The translations under genes and the position numbers were made by a program. DNA of 35,425 nucleotides from positions 1-35,425 of IMG/VR virus record IMGVR_UViG_3300042894_000460, one strand, 5' to 3'. Shown here piece after piece: positions 798 through 33,145 of this stretch. This DNA is from a virus (lineage: Duplodnaviria; Caudoviricetes). The notes below the pieces were generated by a model. It was not told where the DNA came from, did no database searches, and saw only the letters and a list, made by a program, of their open reading frames with translations. The number at the start of each line of letters is the position of its first letter. Position 1 is the stretch's first letter.

Positions 798-3700
798 TTA
801 TTTCCTTTTGAGCTTCTTGTTGCTCAGTTCCATGAACATTGCGTCGCGGTTGTCACTCATCTTAACTTTACCACTAACAGACTTTTTAACTTGAGGTTTA
901 ACTGACCCACCTTTAGCGTAGACATCAGGCAGAATAATTGGTGGGCGACCACCCATCATCGGTTCAGATTGTGGCAACACCAAATCACCAGACAGCTCTA
1001 ATTCTTTTTTCATTGCCTCAATAAACTCTTCTTGAGAGCGCCGTGGCAATCCTTCACGCAAGTCCATTGTTGGGGTTACACCAACCAAGTTACGCTTCTC
1101 ACCCTTGCCAGCCAACGCTCTACTGCGGTGGCGACCTTCGTGCCCTGAGACATAAGGTAGCAGTGGCAAGCCAACTTCTTCTTTTGCCAAGTTGAGGTAA
1201 GGAACGCTATCAAACATAGCTATTCGCTCAAGGTGTTTGACATAGTCACTTGTTGGCACGGTGTACTTAGAGATCTCGCCTTGCTTGGCTGACTCTGCCG
1301 CCTTGGGGCCAACGCTAGTCTTGCCTTGCAACTCGGTCGCAAACTTCTCAAAGTCCGCTGGACTCATGGTCATCAAAGCTTTGGCATTGTCGCCAGTGAA
1401 GCGTTCTTTGAGCGCATCTAGGGTGTACATCTTCTCAAGGTTTGGAACTTCGTCAGCCGCACGTTCTACACGCCTTGCTCCGTAACCACCCTTTTCCTTC
1501 TCGACGATCTTCTTCAGCTCTGTCAATGTACTTGGCTTAATGATCTGTGGCGCTTTAGATGCTGGCGCGGCTTTTCTAGCCATCTTGGAAATAAACCCGC
1601 CAGTGGCTTTGGTTATGTCTGGTTCATTGGTGTCGTACGTGCCACGGTTTCCAATAGCAGATTTAATTTGCTCTGGTTTAAACACGGCAATGTTTTTTGC
1701 CAAATCGTCAGAGTAAAACGAATCAAAACCTAATTTTTGGATTGCTTCCAAAACGTCTGGGCTTTCTATTGCTGACCATAACCCATCTTTTATGTATTCA
1801 AGCTGTTCTCTGTCTTTTATGATAGACCTGAGTTTATTTAAGTGAGATGGATTTTCATAGTCAAACGGATTTTCAGCACGAACGTGCACGGGCATGATGT
1901 TTTGCCCACGAGGTTGTCCCAAACCGGGGTATTGATTAGCAACCTTTGGGTCGGGGGTGGCAAAAATGTATGGCCTAAATTCGGTAATGTCTTCGTCAGT
2001 ACCGTGGTACATCACGTTTTTTTCTTTCGACTTCTCAAGGTACTTGGCTTTGTTGGCTTCACGCTCAGCCAAAGGCAACACACCCTCCTGTTGACCAGAA
2101 GCTTTAGCTCTTGCCGCCATGCGCTTGATCTCAGCCTCGATCTCAGCGTTGGTCAGCGAGTTAGGAACAACGTCGCGCAGGTATCTGTTCTCGTCTCTAG
2201 CGATTATGTTCTTGACAGCTTCTGCACGAGGCGCCATCTCGCCTCTCATCTGCTTAAGCTTAGCTAGAGCCGCCATCTTGGCAATTGATCCGCCCTTGCT
2301 GTATTCAGGTTCTTCTTGAGGCTCAAGCATCTGGGATGCCGCACCAGCGCCAGCAGTTGGGATGCCAACCTGTTGGTATAGGGGTAGACCCTTCGTCTTG
2401 ATGGACTCACGCATCTCTGGTGTGATAGGGAAGTTGTGGAGCTTGATCTGGTTATACGTATCTAGCTTCTGAAGCTCTTCAGCCATAAGCCGCTCAGACT
2501 CTGGTCTTGTCATTCTTCCAACCAGAGTTTCTTCGCCAGTCTCTGGATGACGCCTCATTAGATCTACCATTCCATCAAATGGTTCATTGAGGTCTTGAAC
2601 GGTTATGAATGGGTGGTCGCCACGCATACCACCGCCCCAAGATGTGCTTTTAGGGTCTCTGGTAGATACAGGGATACTGCCCATCTCAACCCTAGCGCCG
2701 TATTTATCGCCAAAGGTGTTTAGGTAGTCGGTCAGCATCTTGTCGTAGAACCCTTCCATGCCTTCTTTACGGGGAAGAGACGTGCCTTCTGCTTCCGTCT
2801 GCATACGATCCCACACGCGGTTTGTGAGCTTGTCTATTTGCTCTTTGCTGTTATCACGACGCATGACTACGCTAATAATTTTGTGCAGGTCTTCTTTTGA
2901 TTTGACTGGGTCACCTTGGTTCTCAAGTAAAACACCGCGTTCACGGGCTATCTCTTCGATGTTTTGTCCGCCGTAATCGCCACCATATTGCTCTTTGGCT
3001 CCAACAGTCCAACCGTCATCGCTCTTCTTCCAATCGATGCGTTCACTACCGTAGCGCCTGAATTGCTCGGCTCCGGGCGAGATCGCAATGCTGTCATACC
3101 CATTCTCAGCCGCGTAGTTCAGCAAACGCTTCATCGCCAGCTCGTGCCAGTTCTTTTTAAACGGGGCGTCAGGTACTCCGTAATTGATGATGTTCTGCAA
3201 TTCGTCCCGCTTCTCTTGTAGTTGCATGAGTTGGGGGGTAATGCTGTTTGCCTCATCAACTAAGGCTCTGTGTCCTTCGCCACGATAACCTATGCGCTCA
3301 GCTTCATCACGAAGTTGACCACGCTTGTTTACTAAATCTTTAAACTCTTTTTCTAGCGCATTGCTCTGCTCTACGTAGTCGTCAGGTTTGTATCCCTTCT
3401 TACGACCAGTTTGGTGCCAGTCAGACTGGATCTCTTCGACGTGTAGGATCTTTTTTGGCGGCGTCTTGCGCTCACCCTGAGTCATTGTTACGTTGTTGCG
3501 TATGTTCTCAGGCAAAGTCTCAACATATGCCTGCAACTCTTCAGGTGTGTCAAACATCTGTGATTGCCTGCCAGACGTCTTGTTGACGACGTAGAAGCCC
3601 TTCTGTGGGGGCTGAGGAATAAGCCTGTCTTGCACACGCATGTGAGCTAAGACGTTAGGGTCTTGCAGAAAATGTGTTGACCAATAGTTGTTGTCGCCTT

Positions 3701-4190
3701 TTGATGTATCTAATTTGGGTAACTTCAACAACATCTCGCGGTAGTTTTCACCACCAGCCGTTTTGTACTCACTGTACTTTTCAAGATCTTCATCAATTTC
3801 TTCGTTCCACTTCCGTATTACACGACTTGGAACTTCATCCCATGAGTCGTAACCAGAAGTCTCAATCCTGTCACGTAACAAGTCATTGCGCTCTTCATCA
3901 CTAATCTCAGTAAGATGGCGCTCACTTACTTGAGGTGGTGGGTTCTCTTTGAGGACTTGCTGAGCCTCTTGCTTGGTCATCTTGCCCTTGCCCTTGAACG
4001 CTTGCTCAAGCTTACGGTCGGCGATCTCAGCAGGCTTGACGCCCTTGGTCTTCATGACTTCGGTCAGGAACTCAATGCCAGTACCCTTGTTGCGCTTTAG
4101 GTTAGCCAACGTCTCATCCACAGCGGAGTAGAAGGGTTTCTTCTTTGCGGCTTTGAGTCCGATATCAGGCAATCCACGAATTAAGCTCAT
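798..4190 (-). CDS. Large polyvalent-type multidomain protein (N-terminal VEEIQSDWHQ domain, ART-PolyVal-like ADP-ribosyltransferase domain, ParB/Srx-like domain)
   Basis: 1130 aa. Motifs: GGENYREMLL, AHMRVQDR, LHVEEIQSDWHQ, DAPFKKNW; VMYHGT...IFATPDPKVANQY...IMPVHV..ENPFD...AVFKPEQIKSAIGNRGTYD (ART-like); GHEGRHRSRAL (ParB-like GxHR). ATGA overlap with the upstream gene. Confidence 0.7.
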   Translation of the reverse strand: MSLIRGLPDIGLKAAKKKPFYSAVDETLANLKRNKGTGIEFLTEVMKTKGVKPAEIADRKLEQAFKGKGKMTKQEAQQVLKENPPPQVSERHLTEISDEERNDLLRDRIETSGYDSWDEVPSRVIRKWNEEIDEDLEKYSEYKTAGGENYREMLLKLPKLDTSKGDNNYWSTHFLQDPNVLAHMRVQDRLIPQPPQKGFYVVNKTSGRQSQMFDTPEELQAYVETLPENIRNNVTMTQGERKTPPKKILHVEEIQSDWHQTGRKKGYKPDDYVEQSNALEKEFKDLVNKRGQLRDEAERIGYRGEGHRALVDEANSITPQLMQLQEKRDELQNIINYGVPDAPFKKNWHELAMKRLLNYAAENGYDSIAISPGAEQFRRYGSERIDWKKSDDGWTVGAKEQYGGDYGGQNIEEIARERGVLLENQGDPVKSKEDLHKIISVVMRRDNSKEQIDKLTNRVWDRMQTEAEGTSLPRKEGMEGFYDKMLTDYLNTFGDKYGARVEMGSIPVSTRDPKSTSWGGGMRGDHPFITVQDLNEPFDGMVDLMRRHPETGEETLVGRMTRPESERLMAEELQKLDTYNQIKLHNFPITPEMRESIKTKGLPLYQQVGIPTAGAGAASQMLEPQEEPEYSKGGSIAKMAALAKLKQMRGEMAPRAEAVKNIIARDENRYLRDVVPNSLTNAEIEAEIKRMAARAKASGQQEGVLPLAEREANKAKYLEKSKEKNVMYHGTDEDITEFRPYIFATPDPKVANQYPGLGQPRGQNIMPVHVRAENPFDYENPSHLNKLRSIIKDREQLEYIKDGLWSAIESPDVLEAIQKLGFDSFYSDDLAKNIAVFKPEQIKSAIGNRGTYDTNEPDITKATGGFISKMARKAAPASKAPQIIKPSTLTELKKIVEKEKGGYGARRVERAADEVPNLEKMYTLDALKERFTGDNAKALMTMSPADFEKFATELQGKTSVGPKAAESAKQGEISKYTVPTSDYVKHLERIAMFDSVPYLNLAKEEVGLPLLPYVSGHEGRHRSRALAGKGEKRNLVGVTPTMDLREGLPRRSQEEFIEAMKKELELSGDLVLPQSEPMMGGRPPIILPDVYAKGGSVKPQVKKSVSGKVKMSDNRDAMFMELSNKKLKRK

Positions 4191-7100
4191 AGTGGTCTCT
4201 CTTCAATGATCAGGTCGTCACCAGTTACTTCGCCACCTTCGGCTTTGTGCATCCCACTGTCAGCAACTTGACGTGCCGCATCATCCACTGTCAAGCCCTT
4301 GTTGACAAGGTTTACGATCATGTTCAGGTTGTTCATGCTGTCTCTGATGCCGTACTTCTGGGCGGCTTCTACGAACTCATTGCCATCGATGTAGGCGGCT
4401 GGTTGCTTGACAGCTCCGCCCTTCTTCTTGCCAGTGTACTTCTTGATCATCTCTTGGTACTGCTTGATCTCGTCGATAAGTTGCTGGTCAATGACTTGGC
4501 GTGGGCCGACATACTTGAATGAGCCGAACTCCTGTGGAGCTTGCTTAGGGTTCTCGCGCACGGCTTTGACGGAGTCAGGGAAGGATAGCTCGTAAGGGAT
4601 GTTGTATTTGGAGGAGCCCAGAAACTCCCCCGGTATATCGTGCGAATAAGTCGGGTGCTCAGAATAACCAAGATTCTCAACCTCTGGACGCAGGCGACCA
4701 ATCGACTTGCCTGTCACACCAATCTCCAAGTCACGCAGGTCAGGCTCAGTCACAGCGTGGCGTATATCAACACCGCTGGGCAGGTTGTACTTCTGAGTCA
4801 CCGTTGGCATCTGCATCAAAGCGTTGAAGTGCTTGCGCAGTTCTGGGTCGATGGAGAAGTGTAGGTAGGCTTCGGACGGGTTCTCGATCCCCGGGAACGA
4901 GGGGCGAGGGCCAGACTTCTTACTCCCAAGGCGAACCAATTTGTTGAAGTCCTCAATCTGTCCCCTGCTCATCTTGGCTGGGTTGATGGCGGCAAGGTTC
5001 GCGTCCGCGTAGTGCTGGGCGTAGTTGATGGAGTCAGGCCCCATCATCACGTAGTTCCCAAGCACAGGTAGGTCATACTGCTTAGACGCCTCACGGGCAA
5101 CATTCTGCACACGGTTAGCCGCATTCAAGCCAGAAGCCCAGAATGCGTCACCTTCGTGCTCTAAGCCGTACAGAGGGCCTCCATGCTGAGGGGATGGACT
5201 TTCCAACGGAACGCCGTTTACGGAGTAGATCGTCTTGCCTGAGATCGTCGGGTCACCAGCGATGCCAACCATCACGTTGTCTTTGAGTTCCTCATAGTCC
5301 ACAGTTCTTGGCAACCCACGTTCAGCACCTGTTGGACGGATGTCGTGCACCATCTCCTTCTCTCTGGCAAACTGCTTTTGAGTCTTTTCAGCAACTGACT
5401 GTGAACCAGTTCTGCCACGGACAAACTCACCAAGCATCTGTGGAGCCATGCGTCTAGCAATGGCATCAATCTCTGCCTTGCTTTTTGGGGCGGCTCTAGC
5501 TAACTTGGCAATAGCGCCACCGCCAGCCATCTTCTGGTTGTTCAGCTCCAGCATCATGGTGTCTGGGTTGTTGGAGATGACCACGCCACCACGCTTCATG
5601 CCTTCAAGATCTGGTGGTACATCTGGTAAAACGTCAGGTGGTACGTCTGGCGTTGGTGGCTCTTTTGGCAAGCCAGTGTCATAGTTCTTTCCTGTCTGCA
5701 ACTCGTACAACTTTCGTACAAGGTCGTCCCTCTCAGGTGTAGTCAAATACCTTGGGACTTTGTTGCCAGCCTGTTCCAACGCTTTGACATCATCTTGCGC
5801 AAAGATGCCTTGAGGGCCAGTCGTGCGCCATTCAAAACCTGTGTTGTTAAAGTCGCGAACATCAGTCCAATTTTGACCACGGACAAAGTCTTGAACAAAC
5901 GGAAGGTAAGCATCCTTGGGCTTGGCGTTGCCTTTTCCTTTAATCTGAACAATTTGATCAGGCATGTTTTCTTTAGCCATGCGGGTTGCAATGTCATACA
6001 CATCTGAATCGGTGTAACCGTTTGGCAACTGCTTTGCCTCTTGCTCTGCCGCTGATTTGTATTGAAGCACCTGTTCATGGCGCGGAGCATATTTGGCTGG
6101 TTGAACCTCAATCGTCACATGTGGCTCACCCTTGGCATCACGCAGGCTAAAGATCTTTGACTTGCCTTCCAGCACGTCAGGACAATAACCACCAACGCAG
6201 TGACCCATAGTCTCGCCTTCGTACTTGAGTGCGTCTTCAATAATCTTTTCTCTAGGGTGACGTTGTAAGTTTCCAGCCTCGTCATAGTATGTGCCAACTA
6301 TAGCGGACTCTTTCCAACCTTCAGGCAAGTCTTTTGGCTGATTCAACTCAACCCATTTGTAGCCCTCTGGGTACTCCTTGTAGGTAGGGAAGCCCTCTTG
6401 CTGTTGAAGAGCGGTCTCCTGCATCTTCTTAGCCATCTCTTGGTCGTACTCGTAGGTGCGGCGTACAGCCTGCTCCATGCTGACCTTATTCAGTTGCTCA
6501 GGGCGGATGCGACCAGCGGCTACGTCTTGCCTAAGCACGTCAACAATGTGGTTGAAGCCAAGATCTTGTGTGAAGTTCACAGAATCCATTGGGGAGATCC
6601 CATAGACTTTGGTGAACGGATCAACCTTCTCCATCCATGGTTCACCCTTGCCTCTGTTGATCATCTCACCAGCAGTGCCAAATCCTATTGGCTTATCTGC
6701 CTTGCTTTCCCACAACATACCTTGCCATGATTGCCCATACGGATCAGGAAACCCAGCCTCTTTGCGTGTCTCCCTAACTGCGCCCATGTTGAGCGGCGTA
6801 CTTGCATCTGTGGGCAAATGGCTGACGCCCTCTTCTGCCAGCCTACGGACTGGGTCTTCAGGTGTACCCATGTCCTTCTTGACGTAGTTGGTCAGGTTGC
6901 TTTGAATCCACTTGTTCAGAGCGGCTTCGTTTGCCCTGCGTGGGTTGTTTATGTCGCGCTCAAGGTGCTCAGCTACCCTACCTGCACCGCCTGTGTAATC
7001 GGGCTGGCTGGCGGCTTCTTTAAGCTCTGCAATACGTTTTAGTGCCGCGGCATCGAACTCAGGGCCATACGGGATGTTGACGTTGTTGATCGTGCCCTTT

Positions 7101-7840
7101 TGGATCAGGGGATCAAGAACCTTTTCGACGCTTCCAGCTAACCAGTTACCACCTCTTGGCTTGACCACGTTGGACTGCGTGTTAGCACCCATAGCCAAGA
7201 CCATCTCACGAGGTAGACCACCACGCTCTAAGGCACCCTTGACGACTGGCTCCATGCGACGCTCGATAGCTCTACCAGCCTGCTCTGCGCCTCTGCCTGC
7301 TGTTCTCATGGCTTGGGACGTGGCTGGGCCTGACAGGTATTGAAGGGCAACCGCCTCGGGCAATATGGGTGGGAGCTTGTACTGGGTCTCAAGGCGATCA
7401 AGGAAGTCGCCTACGTCGCCTGCGTACTCATACGCCAGTGGTTGCTCAGGCTTGTACATGCGGTCTTCTATGAACTTCTCAGCCGCGGCGTCACCATGCA
7501 CCACTCTGGTTGGCAGAGAGTTGATGGCTTGCGTCAGGGCTGAACCCATGAGCCTGACTGTCTGCAATGCGCCAGCCGCCTTCTCAAGTGGGGATCTGTC
7601 AGCCTCTCGCTGGCGCCTGAGTTGGTTTTCACGCTCAACCATGCGCCTGCCTAACTCTAGGTTCTGTTGGCTTGGGACGCCTACATCCACCATGCCGAAC
7701 TGGTCGCTGTCCTCGCCAAACCGAGGCAACTCCATCGCTCTTGGATCATCAATGAACGGCATCGGCTTAGCAGGCTTGAAGTTCTTTGCCTTGATGTTCC
7801 CAACTCGTGGGTAGAACGCTGGTTTGTTTTCGTCAGCCAT
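4187..7840 (-). CDS. Large multidomain protein with a PcfJ-like domain; probably virion-associated
   Basis: 1217 aa. LKYEGETMGHCVGGY...IFSLRDAKGEPHVTIEV...QIVQIKGKGNAKP matches the PcfJ-like signature. Additional domains are unrecognised. Confidence 0.7.
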   Translation of the reverse strand: MADENKPAFYPRVGNIKAKNFKPAKPMPFIDDPRAMELPRFGEDSDQFGMVDVGVPSQQNLELGRRMVERENQLRRQREADRSPLEKAAGALQTVRLMGSALTQAINSLPTRVVHGDAAAEKFIEDRMYKPEQPLAYEYAGDVGDFLDRLETQYKLPPILPEAVALQYLSGPATSQAMRTAGRGAEQAGRAIERRMEPVVKGALERGGLPREMVLAMGANTQSNVVKPRGGNWLAGSVEKVLDPLIQKGTINNVNIPYGPEFDAAALKRIAELKEAASQPDYTGGAGRVAEHLERDINNPRRANEAALNKWIQSNLTNYVKKDMGTPEDPVRRLAEEGVSHLPTDASTPLNMGAVRETRKEAGFPDPYGQSWQGMLWESKADKPIGFGTAGEMINRGKGEPWMEKVDPFTKVYGISPMDSVNFTQDLGFNHIVDVLRQDVAAGRIRPEQLNKVSMEQAVRRTYEYDQEMAKKMQETALQQQEGFPTYKEYPEGYKWVELNQPKDLPEGWKESAIVGTYYDEAGNLQRHPREKIIEDALKYEGETMGHCVGGYCPDVLEGKSKIFSLRDAKGEPHVTIEVQPAKYAPRHEQVLQYKSAAEQEAKQLPNGYTDSDVYDIATRMAKENMPDQIVQIKGKGNAKPKDAYLPFVQDFVRGQNWTDVRDFNNTGFEWRTTGPQGIFAQDDVKALEQAGNKVPRYLTTPERDDLVRKLYELQTGKNYDTGLPKEPPTPDVPPDVLPDVPPDLEGMKRGGVVISNNPDTMMLELNNQKMAGGGAIAKLARAAPKSKAEIDAIARRMAPQMLGEFVRGRTGSQSVAEKTQKQFAREKEMVHDIRPTGAERGLPRTVDYEELKDNVMVGIAGDPTISGKTIYSVNGVPLESPSPQHGGPLYGLEHEGDAFWASGLNAANRVQNVAREASKQYDLPVLGNYVMMGPDSINYAQHYADANLAAINPAKMSRGQIEDFNKLVRLGSKKSGPRPSFPGIENPSEAYLHFSIDPELRKHFNALMQMPTVTQKYNLPSGVDIRHAVTEPDLRDLEIGVTGKSIGRLRPEVENLGYSEHPTYSHDIPGEFLGSSKYNIPYELSFPDSVKAVRENPKQAPQEFGSFKYVGPRQVIDQQLIDEIKQYQEMIKKYTGKKKGGAVKQPAAYIDGNEFVEAAQKYGIRDSMNNLNMIVNLVNKGLTVDDAARQVADSGMHKAEGGEVTGDDLIIEERPL
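5605..5655 (-). repeat. Short coding tandem repeat, PDVP-PDVL-PDVP-PDL linker
   Basis: 12-nt-period repeat encoding a proline-rich linker just before the MKRGGVV motif. Confidence 0.6.
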
Positions 7841-7896: not shown

Positions 7897-8637
7897 CTAC
7901 GCAATTAGATCCGTGCCAACCAACCTGCGCACCAGCTCCTTGCGCCTGTCGTCCAGCTCAGCCAACCACTGGTAACCGCTCTCACCCTCAACATTGGGCT
8001 TGGCTTCGGGTGGCGGCGTCTCGCCCACATTGAGATAGGACGTTGCCCACAGGTTCAAGTAGTTTACGGTCACGGCTTTGTTGGTCGCGTAGTTCAAGTC
8101 AGCCTCCATGATGGACTTGTAGAACACACGGTCACAGACGTTGGAGACTTGCTTTGGCATTAGGTTCCACACAGGGAAGAAACTGTAAGCACCGCGCAAC
8201 AAGAAGTAGCAGTTGGTGTCGATGTGGTTTGGCTCCTCTGGTATGTCAGCCACGGTCAGGTCAGGACGTACAAACCTGCGCCTAGCTACCACGTAGTCAC
8301 AGTTCAAAGGGGATCCGTAGTTGCCTATCGCCGTCTTGAGGCACTCCTCGGTGTGCTTGGGGTCAAGCCAGCAGTCAGCGTCTAGCAAGCCAATTGCGTC
8401 GTACCCGTCACTGATAGCAAGCTGAGCACCAATCCCTCGAGGGGTGTTGCCATAGTCTGCGCTAGGTTTGCCAAGCTGGATGTGGCGGGTCACCCTGTCT
8501 GTCAGCCAATCCTGTGGGTAACCATCGCTCACAAAGAAGTGGTCGCTCTTGATGGTCTGAGCCTCCACGCTCTTGATGCACCTCTCCAGCACCTCTGGCT
8601 CTTCTTTGTAGTAGGGCGTGATGTAAGCAACTCTCAT
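7897..8637 (-). CDS. Glycosyltransferase family 2 (GT-A fold)
   Basis: ITPYYKE...CIKSVEAQT...FFVSDG...GNTPRGIG...GLLDADCW (DxD motif); ATGA-coupled to terL. Confidence 0.8.
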   Translation of the reverse strand: MRVAYITPYYKEEPEVLERCIKSVEAQTIKSDHFFVSDGYPQDWLTDRVTRHIQLGKPSADYGNTPRGIGAQLAISDGYDAIGLLDADCWLDPKHTEECLKTAIGNYGSPLNCDYVVARRRFVRPDLTVADIPEEPNHIDTNCYFLLRGAYSFFPVWNLMPKQVSNVCDRVFYKSIMEADLNYATNKAVTVNYLNLWATSYLNVGETPPPEAKPNVEGESGYQWLAELDDRRKELVRRLVGTDLIA

Positions 8638-10675: not shown

Positions 10676-10888
10676 TCAGTCTCTCAATCCCCTCATGATC
10701 CTTCGATCCATGTCCTTGATGGTTAGCTTGTATTCTTTGTTTTGGCTTTCAAGTTTGGCGACTTTGTTGTTTGCGTGTTTCAGCTTCGACTCGAGCTCCT
10801 GCACTAGCGTCTGTAGCTCTGTGATGGCTTTGTTTGCCAGCTCAGGGTTCTCGCTGATCCAGTCAGCTTCCCAGATCTGTTCGTTCAT
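10676..10888 (-). CDS. Small coiled-coil hypothetical protein
   Basis: GGAG upstream, ATGA overlap, heptad pattern. Confidence 0.65.
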   Translation of the reverse strand: MNEQIWEADWISENPELANKAITELQTLVQELESKLKHANNKVAKLESQNKEYKLTIKDMDRRIMRGLRD

Positions 10889-11571
10889 TTGCCCTTCTCC
10901 ATCAGGTCAGCAAGCATTGTCTCAGCGTACTTGTACTGGTAGTCACCCTCGTATTTCTTGACTCCAAAGTGGCTACAGGTGTGGCGTATGTCCAAGTAGC
11001 TCTTGATCCCAGCCTCCTTGAGCTTCTTACCGATCTGGATGTCCTCTGAGATCATCCCACCATCAATGATCTGCACATCACAGATGAGCCTACGGATCTT
11101 CCCGTCGTTGTAGGGGGTTGACACGTCGTACAAGGCTTTCATGGCTTTCCTGCTTAGGCGCAAAAATCCTGTGGCTAGGTACTCTACCTCTAGGAGCCTG
11201 AGATCTTGATCCCAGCGGTGCTGTTTAGGGTCTTCTGGGCGGTGAGTGTAGCGCTCGTCGTCTGTCTTCATCCTTGCGGTGATCCCCACCACGTCTACAG
11301 GGTGGTCGAGCACATCAAAGAACGCCTGCGCATCGAACGCTTGATCCACGTCCAAAAACACAATGTCGTCTACCCCACTGTCGTAGGCGTCGCAGAACAG
11401 GTTGTTTCGGGCTTTTTGCAGGAGAGCCTCACCCATCCAGTAACTCAGGCTGAGCTGTAAGTCAGGGCGCTCCTTGGCGGCTCTTTGGAAGATGGTCACC
11501 AGTGCAATAGCGTGGTCACATACAATCTTGCCATCATAGGACGGGCTGACTATCGCTACTTTTCTGGTCAT
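10885..11571 (-). CDS. GT-A fold glycosyltransferase-like phage protein
   Basis: VAIVSPSYDG...LLQKARNNL...DIVFLDVD...ATGFLRLSR...SEDIQIG...CSHFG. Confidence 0.75.
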   Translation of the reverse strand: MTRKVAIVSPSYDGKIVCDHAIALVTIFQRAAKERPDLQLSLSYWMGEALLQKARNNLFCDAYDSGVDDIVFLDVDQAFDAQAFFDVLDHPVDVVGITARMKTDDERYTHRPEDPKQHRWDQDLRLLEVEYLATGFLRLSRKAMKALYDVSTPYNDGKIRRLICDVQIIDGGMISEDIQIGKKLKEAGIKSYLDIRHTCSHFGVKKYEGDYQYKYAETMLADLMEKGK

Positions 11572-13711: not shown

Positions 13712-13795
13712 TTTGGTCTTTCAAGTAAACGCCCGATTGGCGTGGATGCATCTTAACACGAAATTAAAACGGATCAGATATAGGGACTTTCCCTA
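13712..13795 (-). promoter_or_regulatory. Repeated promoter element, copy 2
   Basis: TAGGGAAAGTCCCTA (13781-13795), TTTTAATTTCGTGTTAAGAT (13750-13769), hairpin CGCC-AATCG-GGCG. Confidence 0.7.
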
Positions 13796-14449
13796 ACATT
13801 CAATGACCCAGCCTGCAAACTCACCCATGCGGAAGAATTGCTTGGCATCCTCCCCCAAGATGGCTGGGTCGATAGGGATCTGCACCCCTGCCAAACTCAT
13901 CTCCTTGTGGAGCACGTCCTCTGGCTTGGCGCCCTGCTGGAGCTTGAACTGCATCGTAAGACGCTTTAGGACGGTCGCAAAGTACCCACCATGGTCACAG
14001 ATCTTGTCCACCACCACTATCACCCCACCTTTGACACAACGCGCTCTGAGGTCTTCTAAAACCAACTGACGCTCGTGCACAGGAATAAACATCATGGTTA
14101 AGAACACGATAAAGACTTGCGCCTCTGGGATGTCGCACTCTCTGATGTCACCCTGAACTACGGCGACGTTGTTGTGATACTTCAGGCGCTCTTGCAGGAC
14201 TTCGCACATGTTGCGGCTTTTTTCGATGGCAACCGCTTGCGCTAAGCGTTCATTCAGCAGTGGCATCAGCTTGCTCAGCATGTTCCCAGTAGACGACCCT
14301 ACGTCCACCACAATGCCGCCTTCGGTCAGGTAGTTGCGCACGATATAGCACACAGCGTCTGTGGTCATGTCGTACCACGGTAATTGCTCACGAACGTGCG
14401 AGTCAAACGTACTGGCAATCTCAGGGGTTTCAAATGTCCAAGAGCTCAT
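13793..14449 (-). CDS. cmoA: CmoA-like carboxy-S-adenosylmethionine (Cx-SAM) synthase homolog
   Basis: Colinear with E. coli CmoA as I recall it: [23 protein letters not shown] ~ [31 protein letters not shown] ~ VYDLGCSLG; GDIR...[13 protein letters not shown]....GGVIVVVDK ~ GDIR...FTLQFLEPSERQ..L....GGALVLSEK; FKLQQG....VLHKEMSL ~ FKRANG....ISQKRSML. Confidence 0.8.
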   Translation of the reverse strand: [218 protein letters not shown]

Positions 14450-15245
14450 CTTTTTCTTTCGCTAAGTTTTTGACCAAGTAGTTGTAGATTCCAACCACTG
14501 ACTTGTGCCTTCCCACGTTCAGATCCGTGGTTAGGAGCTTCTCAAAGTGCTCAGAGATACCTGAGTCACCCTTCTGAAAGTTTGTGTGCTTAAACACCCG
14601 TATACGCTTGAACTGCTCAGGGAATGCGTCAAGGATGGGTTGCTTCTGGTGGGGGCGGTTGACCTCATCCCACGTAGACCCCCTGAGCTCGTCAATCATC
14701 TCCTGCGTCATGTAGGGTGCAATCCAGCATTTCTTGTAGACCATGCTGAGCTTCCTGTGGATGTGCTCCTGCCCGTAAGAGGGGTTAGAGAACAGGGCAT
14801 CCCTGAACTCATCGATCCTGTTTTTGAAATGCATCATTCCTTTTTTGCTGATGCAGAAGTGCCCGTCAGCACCCATACCAGAGAAGATCTCGTGTTCGCG
14901 GATGGTCTTGTAAGCGTAGAGCATTGGCCAACCACACTCAAAGTCCGTCTTCTTCCTAGCCCCAAACCTCACCAAATCCACCAAGTCTTCCCTGAGCACG
15001 TCAATGCTCGTGGGTAGCGGTATCTGCACAAACGGTACGCCAAACTCCTTAGCTGTGATCTGCGCATACTTCACGTCGGTTGACGTTCTGTCGTCCAAGC
15101 AAAAAGAATACGCTGTAACGCGCTTACCAGCCTCTAGCAACGCGAATAGAACGCTGGATGAGTCTACCCCTGCGCTAAGCAAAACAGCGGCTTCATTCGA
15201 CGGTGTACCAGCGCTTTGGAGCAAAACCTTTTTGATGTCAATCAT
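14430..15245 (-). CDS. Asparagine-synthetase-like ATP-dependent amide ligase (synthetase domain only, no glutaminase domain)
   Basis: PP-loop LLSAGVDSS; IFSGMGADGHF (AsnB SGEGADE equivalent); IAPY; K..I..AF...FQKG. Start moved to MIDIKK at 15245 (ATGA overlap with the MTase stop). Confidence 0.8.
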   Translation of the reverse strand: MIDIKKVLLQSAGTPSNEAAVLLSAGVDSSSVLFALLEAGKRVTAYSFCLDDRTSTDVKYAQITAKEFGVPFVQIPLPTSIDVLREDLVDLVRFGARKKTDFECGWPMLYAYKTIREHEIFSGMGADGHFCISKKGMMHFKNRIDEFRDALFSNPSYGQEHIHRKLSMVYKKCWIAPYMTQEMIDELRGSTWDEVNRPHQKQPILDAFPEQFKRIRVFKHTNFQKGDSGISEHFEKLLTTDLNVGRHKSVVGIYNYLVKNLAKEKDELLDI

Positions 15246-16294
15246 GCTGGTAACCTCTTGGCAATTTCGTATATCACGTTGACCGTTACGGCACGACCAC
15301 ATCGCTCGTACCTGTGTGTATCAGGAACTTCTGATCCGTCTGCAAACCAGCGCGTCCAATCATCAGGTAGCGACTGTAAACGCTCGCACTCTAATGGTGT
15401 GAATCTTCTGAGCTGTGACCCAACCATCAACCCGTGCCTGTCTTGAGCTGTAAGGGTGAATGCAGGTTCGTTGTGCTCCTTCATTCGGCGACCACGCTGG
15501 CGCTTCTTTTCTTTGGCTGGTGTCAGGACTGCCCGAACAGATCCATTTGGTTCGGTGGTGCTGTCTTCTCCTCCTGCTGTAGCGTCCTCAAGTTGTTCAA
15601 CTTGTCCTCGTACTTGTCCAGCAAGGTAGAAGTTGTTAGTGTCTCCCTTGTAAAGTCTGTGACAGAGTGTTCCGATAGTGAGACCACCTTCGCTCCGAAA
15701 CCGCGGTTCTTGATCTTGTTCACCTCGGTGTTGAACGCTATCTTCTGCATAACATCTTCCGAGAGGAAATACTTGGGGTCTGGGGTGTCCTCTAAGACTT
15801 GCGACAATAAAGACTCGTTCCCGATTCTGTGGGACTCCGAAATTCTTGCTGTTAAGACACTCCCATTGGACGTCATACCCCAGTTCATCCAGACTTGCGA
15901 TGATAATTCCAAAGGTTCGTCCTCCGTCGTGATTGAGGAGTCCCTTAACATTCTCAAGGAATAGATATGGGATTCGCTTACCAGAGGCAATGCGACAGAT
16001 CTCAAAAAAGAGAGTACCGCGTGTATCCTCTGTCCCGAATCCTGTTCGTCTACCAGCAACGCTGAAAGTTGCGCATGGAAATCCTCCAACGAGTAGGTCG
16101 GCGCTGGGGATTTCATCAATGTGAACTCCTCGTATGTCTCGTCCGTCGGGTTTGTGTTTGAAGTTGTGCTCATAGATGCTTGCCGCTTTAGGTATAAATT
16201 CGTTAGCCCACACGCACTCGTGACCCGCCTTTTCTAATCCAAGGCGGAACCCACCAATGCCTGCAAATAATTCAATGAATTTCATATTGATCAT
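15242..16294 (-). CDS. C5-cytosine DNA methyltransferase-fold enzyme; predicted carboxymethyltransferase
   Basis: Motif I FAGIGG, IV GGFPCATFSVAG, VI ENVKGL, VIII PQNRERVF, IX RRFTPLECERLQ, X YERCGRAVTV. Confidence 0.9.
   Translation of the reverse strand: MINMKFIELFAGIGGFRLGLEKAGHECVWANEFIPKAASIYEHNFKHKPDGRDIRGVHIDEIPSADLLVGGFPCATFSVAGRRTGFGTEDTRGTLFFEICRIASGKRIPYLFLENVKGLLNHDGGRTFGIIIASLDELGYDVQWECLNSKNFGVPQNRERVFIVASLRGHPRPQVFPLGRCYAEDSVQHRGEQDQEPRFRSEGGLTIGTLCHRLYKGDTNNFYLAGQVRGQVEQLEDATAGGEDSTTEPNGSVRAVLTPAKEKKRQRGRRMKEHNEPAFTLTAQDRHGLMVGSQLRRFTPLECERLQSLPDDWTRWFADGSEVPDTHRYERCGRAVTVNVIYEIAKRLPA
15523..16173 (-). CDS. Alternative-frame protein nested in the MTase gene (M.EcoHK31I beta-like subunit); true start uncertain
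   Basis: 216-codon same-strand shifted frame containing WGMTSNGSVLT...SLLSQVLEDTPDPKYFLSE and ending QMDLFGQS. Confidence 0.6.
   Translation of the reverse strand: MSTTSNTNPTDETYEEFTLMKSPAPTYSLEDFHAQLSALLVDEQDSGQRIHAVLSFLRSVALPLVSESHIYSLRMLRDSSITTEDEPLELSSQVWMNWGMTSNGSVLTARISESHRIGNESLLSQVLEDTPDPKYFLSEDVMQKIAFNTEVNKIKNRGFGAKVVSLSEHSVTDFTRETLTTSTLLDKYEDKLNNLRTLQQEEKTAPPNQMDLFGQS

Positions 16295-28770: not shown

Positions 28771-33145
<4,375 letters not shown>

What the first reader, a model, noticed from the sequence alone, without database searches (positions are those of the whole stretch)
15281..16090. MTase has natural substitutions at both cofactor-pocket gate residues (PCQ->PCA and GN->GR)
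Seen: motif IV reads GFPCATFS (Ala codon 16070-16072) instead of the near-invariant PCQ. Motif X reads CGRAVTV (Arg codon 15293-15295) instead of GN(S/A)V. Known: these align to M.HhaI Q82 and N304, the positions mutated to Ala to accept bulky SAM analogues. The equivalent Asn->Lys change in M.MpeI (N374K) lets it use Cx-SAM and make 5cxmC. Inference: Arg pairs with the Cx-SAM carboxylate and Ala makes room. This is independent residue-level support for a carboxymethyltransferase and gives a search signature for the family.
Basis: partly seen in the sequence, partly recalled or inferred. Interest (0 to 1): 0.88.

Follow-up and report, generated by a model that had tools for sequence, protein, structure and literature searches.

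The report
Second-lineage phage DNA carboxymethyltransferase
This phage carries a cytosine-modifying enzyme with an arginine in its cofactor pocket, next to genes for a likely carboxy-SAM maker and an amide ligase, so it likely puts carboxymethyl groups on its DNA, a chemistry published in 2025 but here likely re-invented on a different, predicted two-chain enzyme.

Summary
Observation confirmed: Ala75 (16070-72) and Arg334 (15293-95) align with M.HhaI Q82 and N304. The gene overlaps an amide-ligase gene and a CmoA-like gene. The Arg signature is published: CmoX of phage S-B43 (R350, PDB 8YF3; PMC12783734). This enzyme fails that family's definition (GFPC, not SPPC; 27% identity). Trees place it among ordinary Gln/Asn phage methylases; one Arg clade is rejected (p-AU 2e-20), so it is likely a separate origin. 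After de-duplication, 60 of 60 Ala/Arg loci with readable flank have cmoA; 0 of 94 others do. Corrections: Arg alone is not diagnostic (DNMT3A has it and uses SAM). Ala is not universal and more likely suppresses methylation than makes room. A third site (HhaI D42) shifts in all three Arg lineages. A conserved +1-frame gene inside it (15523-16173) matches a phage methylase beta subunit and is predicted to bind it (0.88; best control 0.01). The genome still lacks CCWGG, GCWGC and GGWCC, so the mark is probably not blanket GC protection. No chemistry was measured. This scan noted the same lineage before on other DNA. Verdict: new variant of a known kind.

The parts
15242..16294 (-). C5-cytosine methyltransferase-fold enzyme, alpha chain, 350 aa (start at 16294 or 16285); likely Cx-SAM-dependent carboxymethyltransferase of a non-SPPC lineage
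   Evidence: PF00145 E 3.4e-79; TIGR00675; alignments to HhaI and SpCmoX; trees
16070..16072 (-). Ala75, at M.HhaI Q82 / SpCmoX S99, next to catalytic Cys74 (16073-16075)
15293..15295 (-). Arg334, at M.HhaI N304 / SpCmoX R350; inferred partner of the Cx-SAM carboxylate
   Evidence: PMC12783734
16193..16195 (-). Ile34, at M.HhaI D42 / SpCmoX V49: third site where Asp is lost in all three Arg lineages examined
15302..15307 (-). Glu330-Arg331: ER-x-GR shared with SPPC CmoX; the Asn sisters have Lys and a variable residue
15523..16173 (-). Nested +1-frame ORF, 216 aa, homologue of the annotated C5-methyltransferase beta subunit of Streptococcus phage MM1; predicted partner chain
   Evidence: 46% identity, E 4e-26; phrog_16143; frame open in 3 of 5000 synonymous randomisations; complex score 0.88, best control 0.01
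15535..15549 (-). QMDLF near the beta C-terminus, resembling a sliding-clamp binding motif (motif recalled, not from a call)
   Evidence: Qx[DSGTN][LM]F in the last 22 aa of 49 of 58 beta ORFs; the 9 without it are all outside the window-type Arg clade; alpha-frame residues under it vary
14430..15245 (-). CmoY-like ATP-dependent amide ligase, 271 aa, no glutaminase domain; start overlaps the methylase stop (ATGA)
   Evidence: PF00733 E 3.3e-11; 36% over 262 aa to SpCmoY, E 4e-44
13793..14449 (-). CmoA-like protein, 218 aa, likely carboxy-SAM synthase; overlaps the ligase gene by 20 nt
   Evidence: best PDB sequence hit 4GEK E 1.2e-11; TIGR00740 E 6.9e-20, below cut-off; model's best fold hits 4GEK/1IM8/4IWN, TM 0.81-0.85

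Best explanation
[quoted passage not shown] Shown by sequence and calls: the Ala75/Arg334 pair, the three coupled genes, the association of Ala/Arg with cmoA, the position among Gln/Asn phage methylases, and the conserved nested gene. Inferred steps: (1) the CmoA-like protein makes Cx-SAM from SAM and prephenate; (2) Cys74 attacks cytosine C6, and Arg334 holds the cofactor's carboxylate as R350 does in SpCmoX; (3) Ala75 and the loss of Asp at position 34 act as helpers, Ala75 most likely by disfavouring plain methylation; (4) the nested +1-frame protein binds the alpha chain and completes it, and may tether it to the replication clamp; (5) the CmoY-like ligase joins an amine, most likely glycine or another amino acid, to the carboxyl group. 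The target sequence is unknown and is probably not the blanket GC motif of S-B43.
For: Arg334 aligns with SpCmoX R350, which contacts the Cx-SAM carboxymethyl group in 8YF3; wild-type SpCmoX accepts only Cx-SAM. Engineered Asn-to-Lys at this site gives carboxymethylation in M.MpeI and M.MedI (PMC12015181). All three S-B43 genes have counterparts here with overlapping starts and stops. Of 170 distinct methylase loci, 60 Ala/Arg loci have cmoA, 3 Ala-type loci are cut by the contig end, 0 of 94 others with at least 1.5 kb of 3' flank have cmoA, and 13 others have too little flank. Separate origin: window-type Arg enzymes form a clade (100/97-100/99) among GFPCQ/GN enzymes, SPPC-Arg enzymes group with SPPCQ/GN enzymes (115 of 120 homologues of one such protein), and holding the Arg enzymes together is rejected (lnL 107 lower, p-AU 3e-81 under LG+G4; 88 lower, p-AU 2e-20 under the mixture model). 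Beta chain: homology to an annotated beta subunit, present in 61 of 61 Arg-type loci, complex score 0.88 against best control 0.01, runs agreeing in at least 51% of contacts, partner pLDDT at least 53; that mark was reached by 116 of 157 solved complexes and 2 of 215 mismatched pairs.
Against: No chemistry was measured. DNMT3A/B have Arg at this site and use SAM. The CmoA-like protein has Glu183 where E. coli CmoA has the carboxylate-binding Arg199 (PMC3663124); the active SpCmoA also has Glu there but has an Arg four residues on, where the window protein has Ala187; it scores 71.7 bits against a cut-off of 193.3 for TIGR00740. The 60 associated loci are one clade, so they are one evolutionary event, not 60. 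The trees are unrooted, use 39-67 chosen rows and join the groups by a long branch. One protein (P0193) has a window-type N-half and an SPPC-type C-half, so the lineages may recombine, and ER-x-GR is shared between them. The genome has no CCWGG, GCWGC or GGWCC site (about 100, 79 and 42 expected), like cassette-less relatives, so no protective benefit is visible. Position 34 is Glu in 6, Thr in 4, Gln in 2 and Asn in 1 of 60 Arg-type proteins, so that site is looser than the Arg. The complex pass may reflect likeness to how single-chain methylases pack the same segment.
Confidence: 0.85

Rival explanations
1. Function as above, but a single origin: the Arg-bearing end of motif X was acquired from an SPPC-type CmoX by recombination rather than by separate mutation.
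For: ER-x-GR is shared by the window clade and SPPC-Arg enzymes; P0193 looks like a chimera of the two; the ligase is 36% identical to SpCmoY, so cassette parts are exchanged.
Against: The shared patch is at most five codons (330-334); its flanks (RY before, AVTVNV after) match the Asn sisters. Changes at 34 and 75 lie far away and use different residues (Ala against Ser). A third Arg lineage (L104/L105, NALGRSM) lacks ER and is rejected as part of the window clade (p-AU 0.0014).
Confidence: 0.15
2. The enzyme is an ordinary SAM-dependent cytosine methylase that tolerates Arg, as DNMT3A does, and the CmoA-like neighbour serves another purpose.
For: DNMT3A R887; engineered M.MedI-N377K still methylates fully with SAM; the closest structures are HhaI.
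Against: cmoA beside 60 of 60 Ala/Arg loci and 0 of 94 others; a carboxyl-dependent ligase homologue lies between the two genes; Q82A lowers methylation in HhaI.
Confidence: 0.06
3. The divergent CmoA-like protein makes a different anionic SAM derivative, so the base is a new C5-substituted cytosine rather than 5cxmC.
For: Arg199 is replaced by Glu183 with no Arg at +4; Arg20, Arg163 and Glu183 are invariant in 32 of 32 aligned relatives; 21% identity to SpCmoA.
Against: Tyr39, Asp62, Gly64, Ser66, Asp117 and the Glu/Asp164 position are kept; best fold hits are CmoA; a 40%-identical CmoA in Moraxella phage Mcat8 partners a canonical SPPC/GR CmoX.
Confidence: 0.06
4. The enzyme uses both cofactors in vivo and writes a mixture of 5mC and 5cxmC.
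For: Engineered Lys variants use both; the scaffold is close (57-68% in conserved columns) to SAM-type sisters.
Against: Wild-type SpCmoX accepted only Cx-SAM; Ala75 is expected to lower methylation.
Confidence: 0.1

Closest known systems
CmoA-CmoX-CmoY of Synechococcus phage S-B43 (Yang et al., Nat Commun 2025, PMC12783734; PDB 8YF3)
   Same: Three-gene set; Arg at HhaI N304; non-Gln at Q82 (Ser there, Ala here); non-Asp at D42 (Val there, Ile here); 271-aa ligase without glutaminase domain, 36% identical.
   Different: GFPC instead of the defining SPPC; 27% identity; separate clade; nested beta gene (SpCmoX is a monomer and its locus gave no beta hit); gene order X-Y-A instead of A-Y-X; GCWGC absent from this genome but not avoided in SpCmoX-like loci (283 seen, 218 expected).
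M.EcoHK31I alpha/beta and the Streptococcus phage MM1 alpha/beta C5-methyltransferase
   Same: Second polypeptide encoded in another frame inside the alpha gene; 46% identity to the MM1 beta subunit.
   Different: MM1 alpha has PCQ and GN and no cmoA in the 2.8 kb fetched. In EcoHK31I motif IX is said to lie in beta (PMC2836561); here alpha keeps the stretch that aligns with HhaI 272-287. The EcoHK31I sequence itself was not compared.
Engineered M.MpeI N374K, M.MedI N377K and M.HhaI Q82A/N304A
   Same: Same two pocket positions; a basic residue at motif X gives Cx-SAM use (PMC12015181; PMC3526304).
   Different: Natural Arg with its own cofactor supply; the engineered Lys enzymes still methylate.
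DNMT3A/DNMT3B
   Same: Arg at the motif X position that corresponds to DNMT1 N1580 / HhaI motif X (PMC13594970).
   Different: SAM-dependent methylases; no CmoA context. They show that Arg alone is not diagnostic.

Membership tests
C5-cytosine methyltransferase fold (PF00145) | Profile score over cut-off; FxGxG, PC, ENV, RxR and motif IX-X stretches intact | tested here: met
   267 bits, cut-off 22; motifs located; motif numbers recalled
CmoX as defined by Yang et al. | SPPC motif before the catalytic Cys | tested here: not met
   GGFPC
CmoX as defined by Yang et al. | Arg at R350 / HhaI N304 | tested here: met
   Arg334
CmoX as defined by Yang et al. | CmoA (and often a ligase) in the neighbourhood | tested here: met
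   13793-14449 and 14430-15245; cmoA in 60 of 60 readable Ala/Arg loci, ligase in 9 of those 60
CmoX as defined by Yang et al. | Common descent with SpCmoX (same clade) | tested here: not met
   AU tests reject one clade
CmoX as defined by Yang et al. | Uses Cx-SAM and not SAM; makes 5cxmC | not testable with these tools
   needs an assay
CmoX as defined by Yang et al. | GC target motif | tested here: inconclusive
   GCWGC and several GC-containing 6-mers are absent from the genome, which argues against blanket GC protection but may be inherited
CmoX as defined by Yang et al. | Listed among the paper's 5,615 sequences | tested here: inconclusive
   six contig ids, including an SPPC positive control, were all absent from the source-data file
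EcoHK31I / MM1-type alpha-beta methylase | Beta chain encoded in an alternative frame inside alpha | tested here: met
   15523-16173, +1 frame
EcoHK31I / MM1-type alpha-beta methylase | Motif IX in beta and missing from alpha (EcoHK31I as described in PMC2836561) | tested here: not met
   alpha 296-311 aligns with HhaI 272-287; beta is predicted to pack against it
EcoHK31I / MM1-type alpha-beta methylase | Both chains needed for activity | not testable with these tools
   binding only predicted
CmoA carboxy-SAM synthase | CmoA fold and cofactor-contact residues (Y39, D62, G64, S66, D117, E/D164) | tested here: met
   Y26, D49, G51, S53, D101, D148; TM 0.85 to 4GEK; D89, N90 and N132 are replaced by E76, K77 and F116
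CmoA carboxy-SAM synthase | Arg199 salt bridge to the carboxylate | tested here: not met
   Glu183; also Glu in the active SpCmoA
CmoA carboxy-SAM synthase | TIGR00740 cut-off | tested here: not met
   71.7 bits against 193.3; SpCmoA was not scored
CmoY glycine ligase | AsnB-type ATP-binding domain without glutaminase domain, similar to SpCmoY | tested here: met
CmoY glycine ligase | Glycine as the amine | not testable with these tools
   the pocket residues are shown only in a figure not held as text

The most novel reading that the evidence does not exclude
Carboxy-SAM use arose at least three times in phage cytosine methylases by a repeatable three-site change (HhaI D42, Q82, N304). This lineage did it on a two-chain enzyme whose second chain is overprinted inside the first and gained a C-terminal clamp-binding motif together with the switch, so the mark is written at the replication fork, on a target other than GC, and for a purpose other than shielding the host's common restriction sites.
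Probability: 0.35. Interest if true: 0.72.

Novelty: new variant of a known kind. Interest (0 to 1): 0.48.

Why it matters
The published census (5,615 CmoX) required SPPC, so this branch is outside it, and the family is larger and of several origins. Close SAM-type sisters (57-68% identical in conserved columns) make a natural before-and-after pair for finding what switches cofactor choice; the published R350N mutant could not answer this because it was dead. Carboxymethyltransferases are used in bisulfite-free methylation sequencing, where only CG and GC specificities are reported in the papers read, so a natural enzyme with another target would be useful. Practical warning: a codon-optimised gene would erase the nested chain and would probably look inactive.

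Tried and rejected
Target motif from word counts: CCGG looked more depleted in cassette-bearing loci (168 of 1226 expected against 396 of 849), but region-matched counts put the window (4 of 25) inside the range of cassette-less relatives (2 of 34 to 32 of 51); rejected. No word was relaxed in the window. 'GR' in L297 was a misalignment (the protein has GN) and was not counted as Arg. De-duplication by contig name failed and was redone by protein sequence. The AU test on the 67-row mixture tree did not finish; it was replaced by tests on 40 and 39 rows (F1_X left out of the second as a long branch). The paper's source-data file holds no contig ids that could be matched. No paper describing the MM1 beta subunit was found; its label comes from the GenBank record. 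PMC7496830 and PMC10491745 (passages) did not mention Arg199. Host: the genome scan gave only two complete Ala/Arg loci (L247, L253) and one cut one (L275, an uncultured betaproteobacterial bin), all in metagenome bins, so no host is assigned. No docking with Cx-SAM and no residue-level superposition could be run. No read mapping was done.

Full report
Setting. The window is a 35,425-base virus record, about 64% complete, of a tailed phage with terminase, lytic transglycosylase and large polyvalent proteins. On the minus strand three genes overlap in a row: a C5-cytosine methylase (15242-16294, PF00145 E 3e-79), an asparagine-synthase-like gene (14430-15245, ATGA overlap) and a CmoA-like gene (13793-14449).

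Observation. Both codons are as stated. Ala75 aligns with M.HhaI Q82 and Arg334 with N304. Of the 120 nearest homologues 118 have Ala+Arg; of the 150 nearest 50%-identity representatives 126 have Gln+Asn, 7 Ala+Arg, none a mixed Ala+Asn or Gln+Arg pair, and 17 are other or unreadable.

What is published. Yang et al. (PMC12783734; I read parts 1-3 of 8 of the text, passages, supplementary file 1, part 1 of 3 of the peer-review file, and term searches of all four files) showed that phage S-B43 CmoA makes Cx-SAM, CmoX makes 5cxmC at GC, and CmoY adds glycine. R350 replaces HhaI N304 and contacts the carboxymethyl group; R350N used neither cofactor. Their family required SPPC plus R350. The text has no occurrence of 'Gln', 'overlap' or 'converg'. 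Searches for other reports returned only this paper for a natural enzyme; subscription journals are not covered, and figures were not seen.

Association test. Loci came from three viral scans and one genome scan seeded with methylases. 225 loci reduced to 170 distinct proteins: 60 Ala/Arg with cmoA, 3 Ala-type cut off by the contig end, 94 others with at least 1.5 kb of 3' flank and no cmoA (83 with Asn read at motif X, 11 unreadable), 13 others with short flank. The ligase is present in 9 of the 60, so it is an optional add-on. These 60 are one clade and count as one event.

Separate origin. The enzyme has GGFPC and is 27% identical to SpCmoX but 57-68% identical in conserved columns to most Gln/Asn phage methylases in the tree set. 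Trees left out the trait columns: 67 rows, mixture model; 40 rows, LG+G4; 39 rows, mixture; rows were chosen from the fetched sets, partly at random. Window-type Arg enzymes form one group (100/97 to 100/99) among Asn enzymes. SPPC-Arg enzymes sit with an SPPCQ/GN family (115 of 120 homologues of the CL131 enzyme) across a 100/100 branch. Holding all GFPC- and SPPC-type Arg enzymes (with two Met derivatives) together is rejected. A third Arg type (L104/L105, GSPCQ and LGRSM, beside a cmoA 64% identical to the window's) is also rejected as part of the window clade (p-AU 0.0014; long branch). Against: trees are unrooted, P0193 looks chimeric, and ER-x-GR is shared, so a short recombined patch is not excluded.

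The pocket residues. Arg: well supported as the carboxylate partner by SpCmoX and by engineered Lys variants (PMC12015181, passages), but DNMT3A R887 at this position methylates with SAM (PMC13594970, passages and section 24), so the signature needs cmoA context. Ala75: cmoA-linked Arg enzymes carry Ser, Ala, Lys or Gln here. In HhaI, Q82A lowered methylation about 16-fold, gave 4-fold more activity with one analogue alone and little or none in combinations (PMC3526304, passages); I infer that it mainly selects against SAM. A column scan (155 rows) found a third site, HhaI D42: Asp/Asn/Glu in both Asn groups (Asp 87% and 80%), Leu/Val/Met in the window clade, Ile/Val in 5 of 5 SPPC-Arg enzymes, Leu in L105. 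In 60 Arg-type locus proteins it is never Asp, hydrophobic in 47. That removing this charge helps an anionic cofactor is inference; no distances could be measured.

Nested gene. A 216-codon +1 frame lies inside the methylase gene (15523-16173). It matches phrog_16143 and the annotated beta subunit of Streptococcus phage MM1 (46%, E 4e-26). M.EcoHK31I needs such a chain for activity (PMC2836561, passages). The frame stayed open in 3 of 5000 synonymous randomisations and is found in 61 of 61 Arg-type loci. The alpha model is confident in the catalytic core and low in 75-92 and most of 185-291. The complex of alpha with beta 1-160 scored 0.88 against a best control of 0.01; runs agree in at least 51% of contacts, partner pLDDT at least 53; the mark was reached by 116 of 157 solved complexes and 2 of 215 mismatched pairs, and holds only roughly here. 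Beta 92-145 is laid against alpha 141-155 and 293-306. This supports binding without showing it, and may reflect likeness to single-chain methylases. A QxxLF ending is present in 49 of 58 beta ORFs, and the 9 without it are all outside the window-type Arg clade; its reading as a clamp-binding motif is recalled.

Partners. The CmoA-like protein's best sequence and fold hits are CmoA structures and most cofactor contacts are kept, but Arg199 (PMC3663124, passages) is Glu183, as in the active SpCmoA. The ligase is 36% identical to SpCmoY.

What the mark does. The window has no CCWGG, GCWGC or GGWCC (about 100, 79, 42 expected). Of 80 terminase relatives I examined the 26 with at least 6 kb upstream: 1 had the cassette there (four further loci with shorter upstream flank carry cmoA), and 4 had a long Gln/Asn methylase instead. 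Cassette-less relatives avoid the same sites (0 of 274, 1 of 356, 1 of 169 upstream), while the four with the long methylase have largely regained CCWGG and GCWGC (46 of 74, 43 of 91 outside that gene). So protection can relax avoidance in this lineage, and the carboxymethyl cassette has not done so. I infer a narrower or different target than GC, or frequent gain and loss of the cassette; this is indirect.

Earlier scan notes reached the same readings on other DNA (separate lineage, two-chain enzyme, clamp-like motif, ParB-fused partner). I saw them after my own trees and complex job; they are not counted as support.

Verdict. Real feature; works like CmoX with probability about 0.85; not a member of the CmoX family as defined; likely an independent origin (about 0.8). 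New variant of a known kind; interest 0.48.

Noticed in passing
L115:2053-5216, L125:4466-6642, L132:1-3952 (Gordonia phage Evaa); cmoA without C5-methylase also in L112, L114, L116-L121, L126: cmoA sits beside a ParB-fused class I methyltransferase-fold protein (DFGAGH...SVLNSVPF) instead of a C5 enzyme; candidate amino-group carboxymethyltransferase, which PMC12783734 says its preliminary search did not find. Earlier scan notes report it too.
   Followed up: partly
L129:4980-6679, L130:4986-7504 (Staphylococcus phages), L122:5965-7610: cmoA-linked C5-methylases with no Arg at motif X (GGVINQ; LNGMTV); L130 also has the ligase. They may bind Cx-SAM in another way.
   Followed up: partly
L104/L105:6001-7757: Third Arg lineage (GSPCQ, LGRSM, Leu at D42, own nested ORF) beside a cmoA 64% identical to the window's: cmoA has swapped methylase partners.
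   Followed up: partly
L215:1144-2184, L216:1129-2196, L217:1147-2199: SPPC enzymes with Ser at Q82, Met at N304 and Asp at D42 nest inside the SPPC-Arg clade, with no annotated cmoA within 1.2 kb: possible return to SAM or another cofactor.
   Followed up: partly
window 1-35425: No CCWGG, GCWGC, GGWCC, and none of several 6-mer palindromes (GGTACC, CTGCAG, GCTAGC, AACGTT, CAGCTG, GCATGC); GGCC and CCGG strongly depleted.
   Followed up: yes
L409:4154-6859, L426:6058-8766, L427:6588-9002, L438:5088-7646: 800-900 aa Gln/Asn methylases with repeated variable-region units (inferred multi-specific) in close relatives, which have regained CCWGG and GCWGC sites.
   Followed up: partly
P0193, P0021: Apparent chimeras of two methylase lineages (natural recombinants or assembly artefacts).
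   Followed up: no
window 7897-8637 (-) and 10885-11571 (-): A family 2 glycosyltransferase gene directly after the terminase, and a second gene matching phrog_1574 of unknown function; any link to DNA or virion modification is untested.
   Followed up: no
window 798-4190 (-) and 4187-7840 (-): Two large proteins with ART-PolyVal and PcfJ-like domains after the packaging genes.
   Followed up: no
window about 29450-29800: Long Thr-Gly repeat inside the 1370-aa protein 28771-32883 (-).
   Followed up: no
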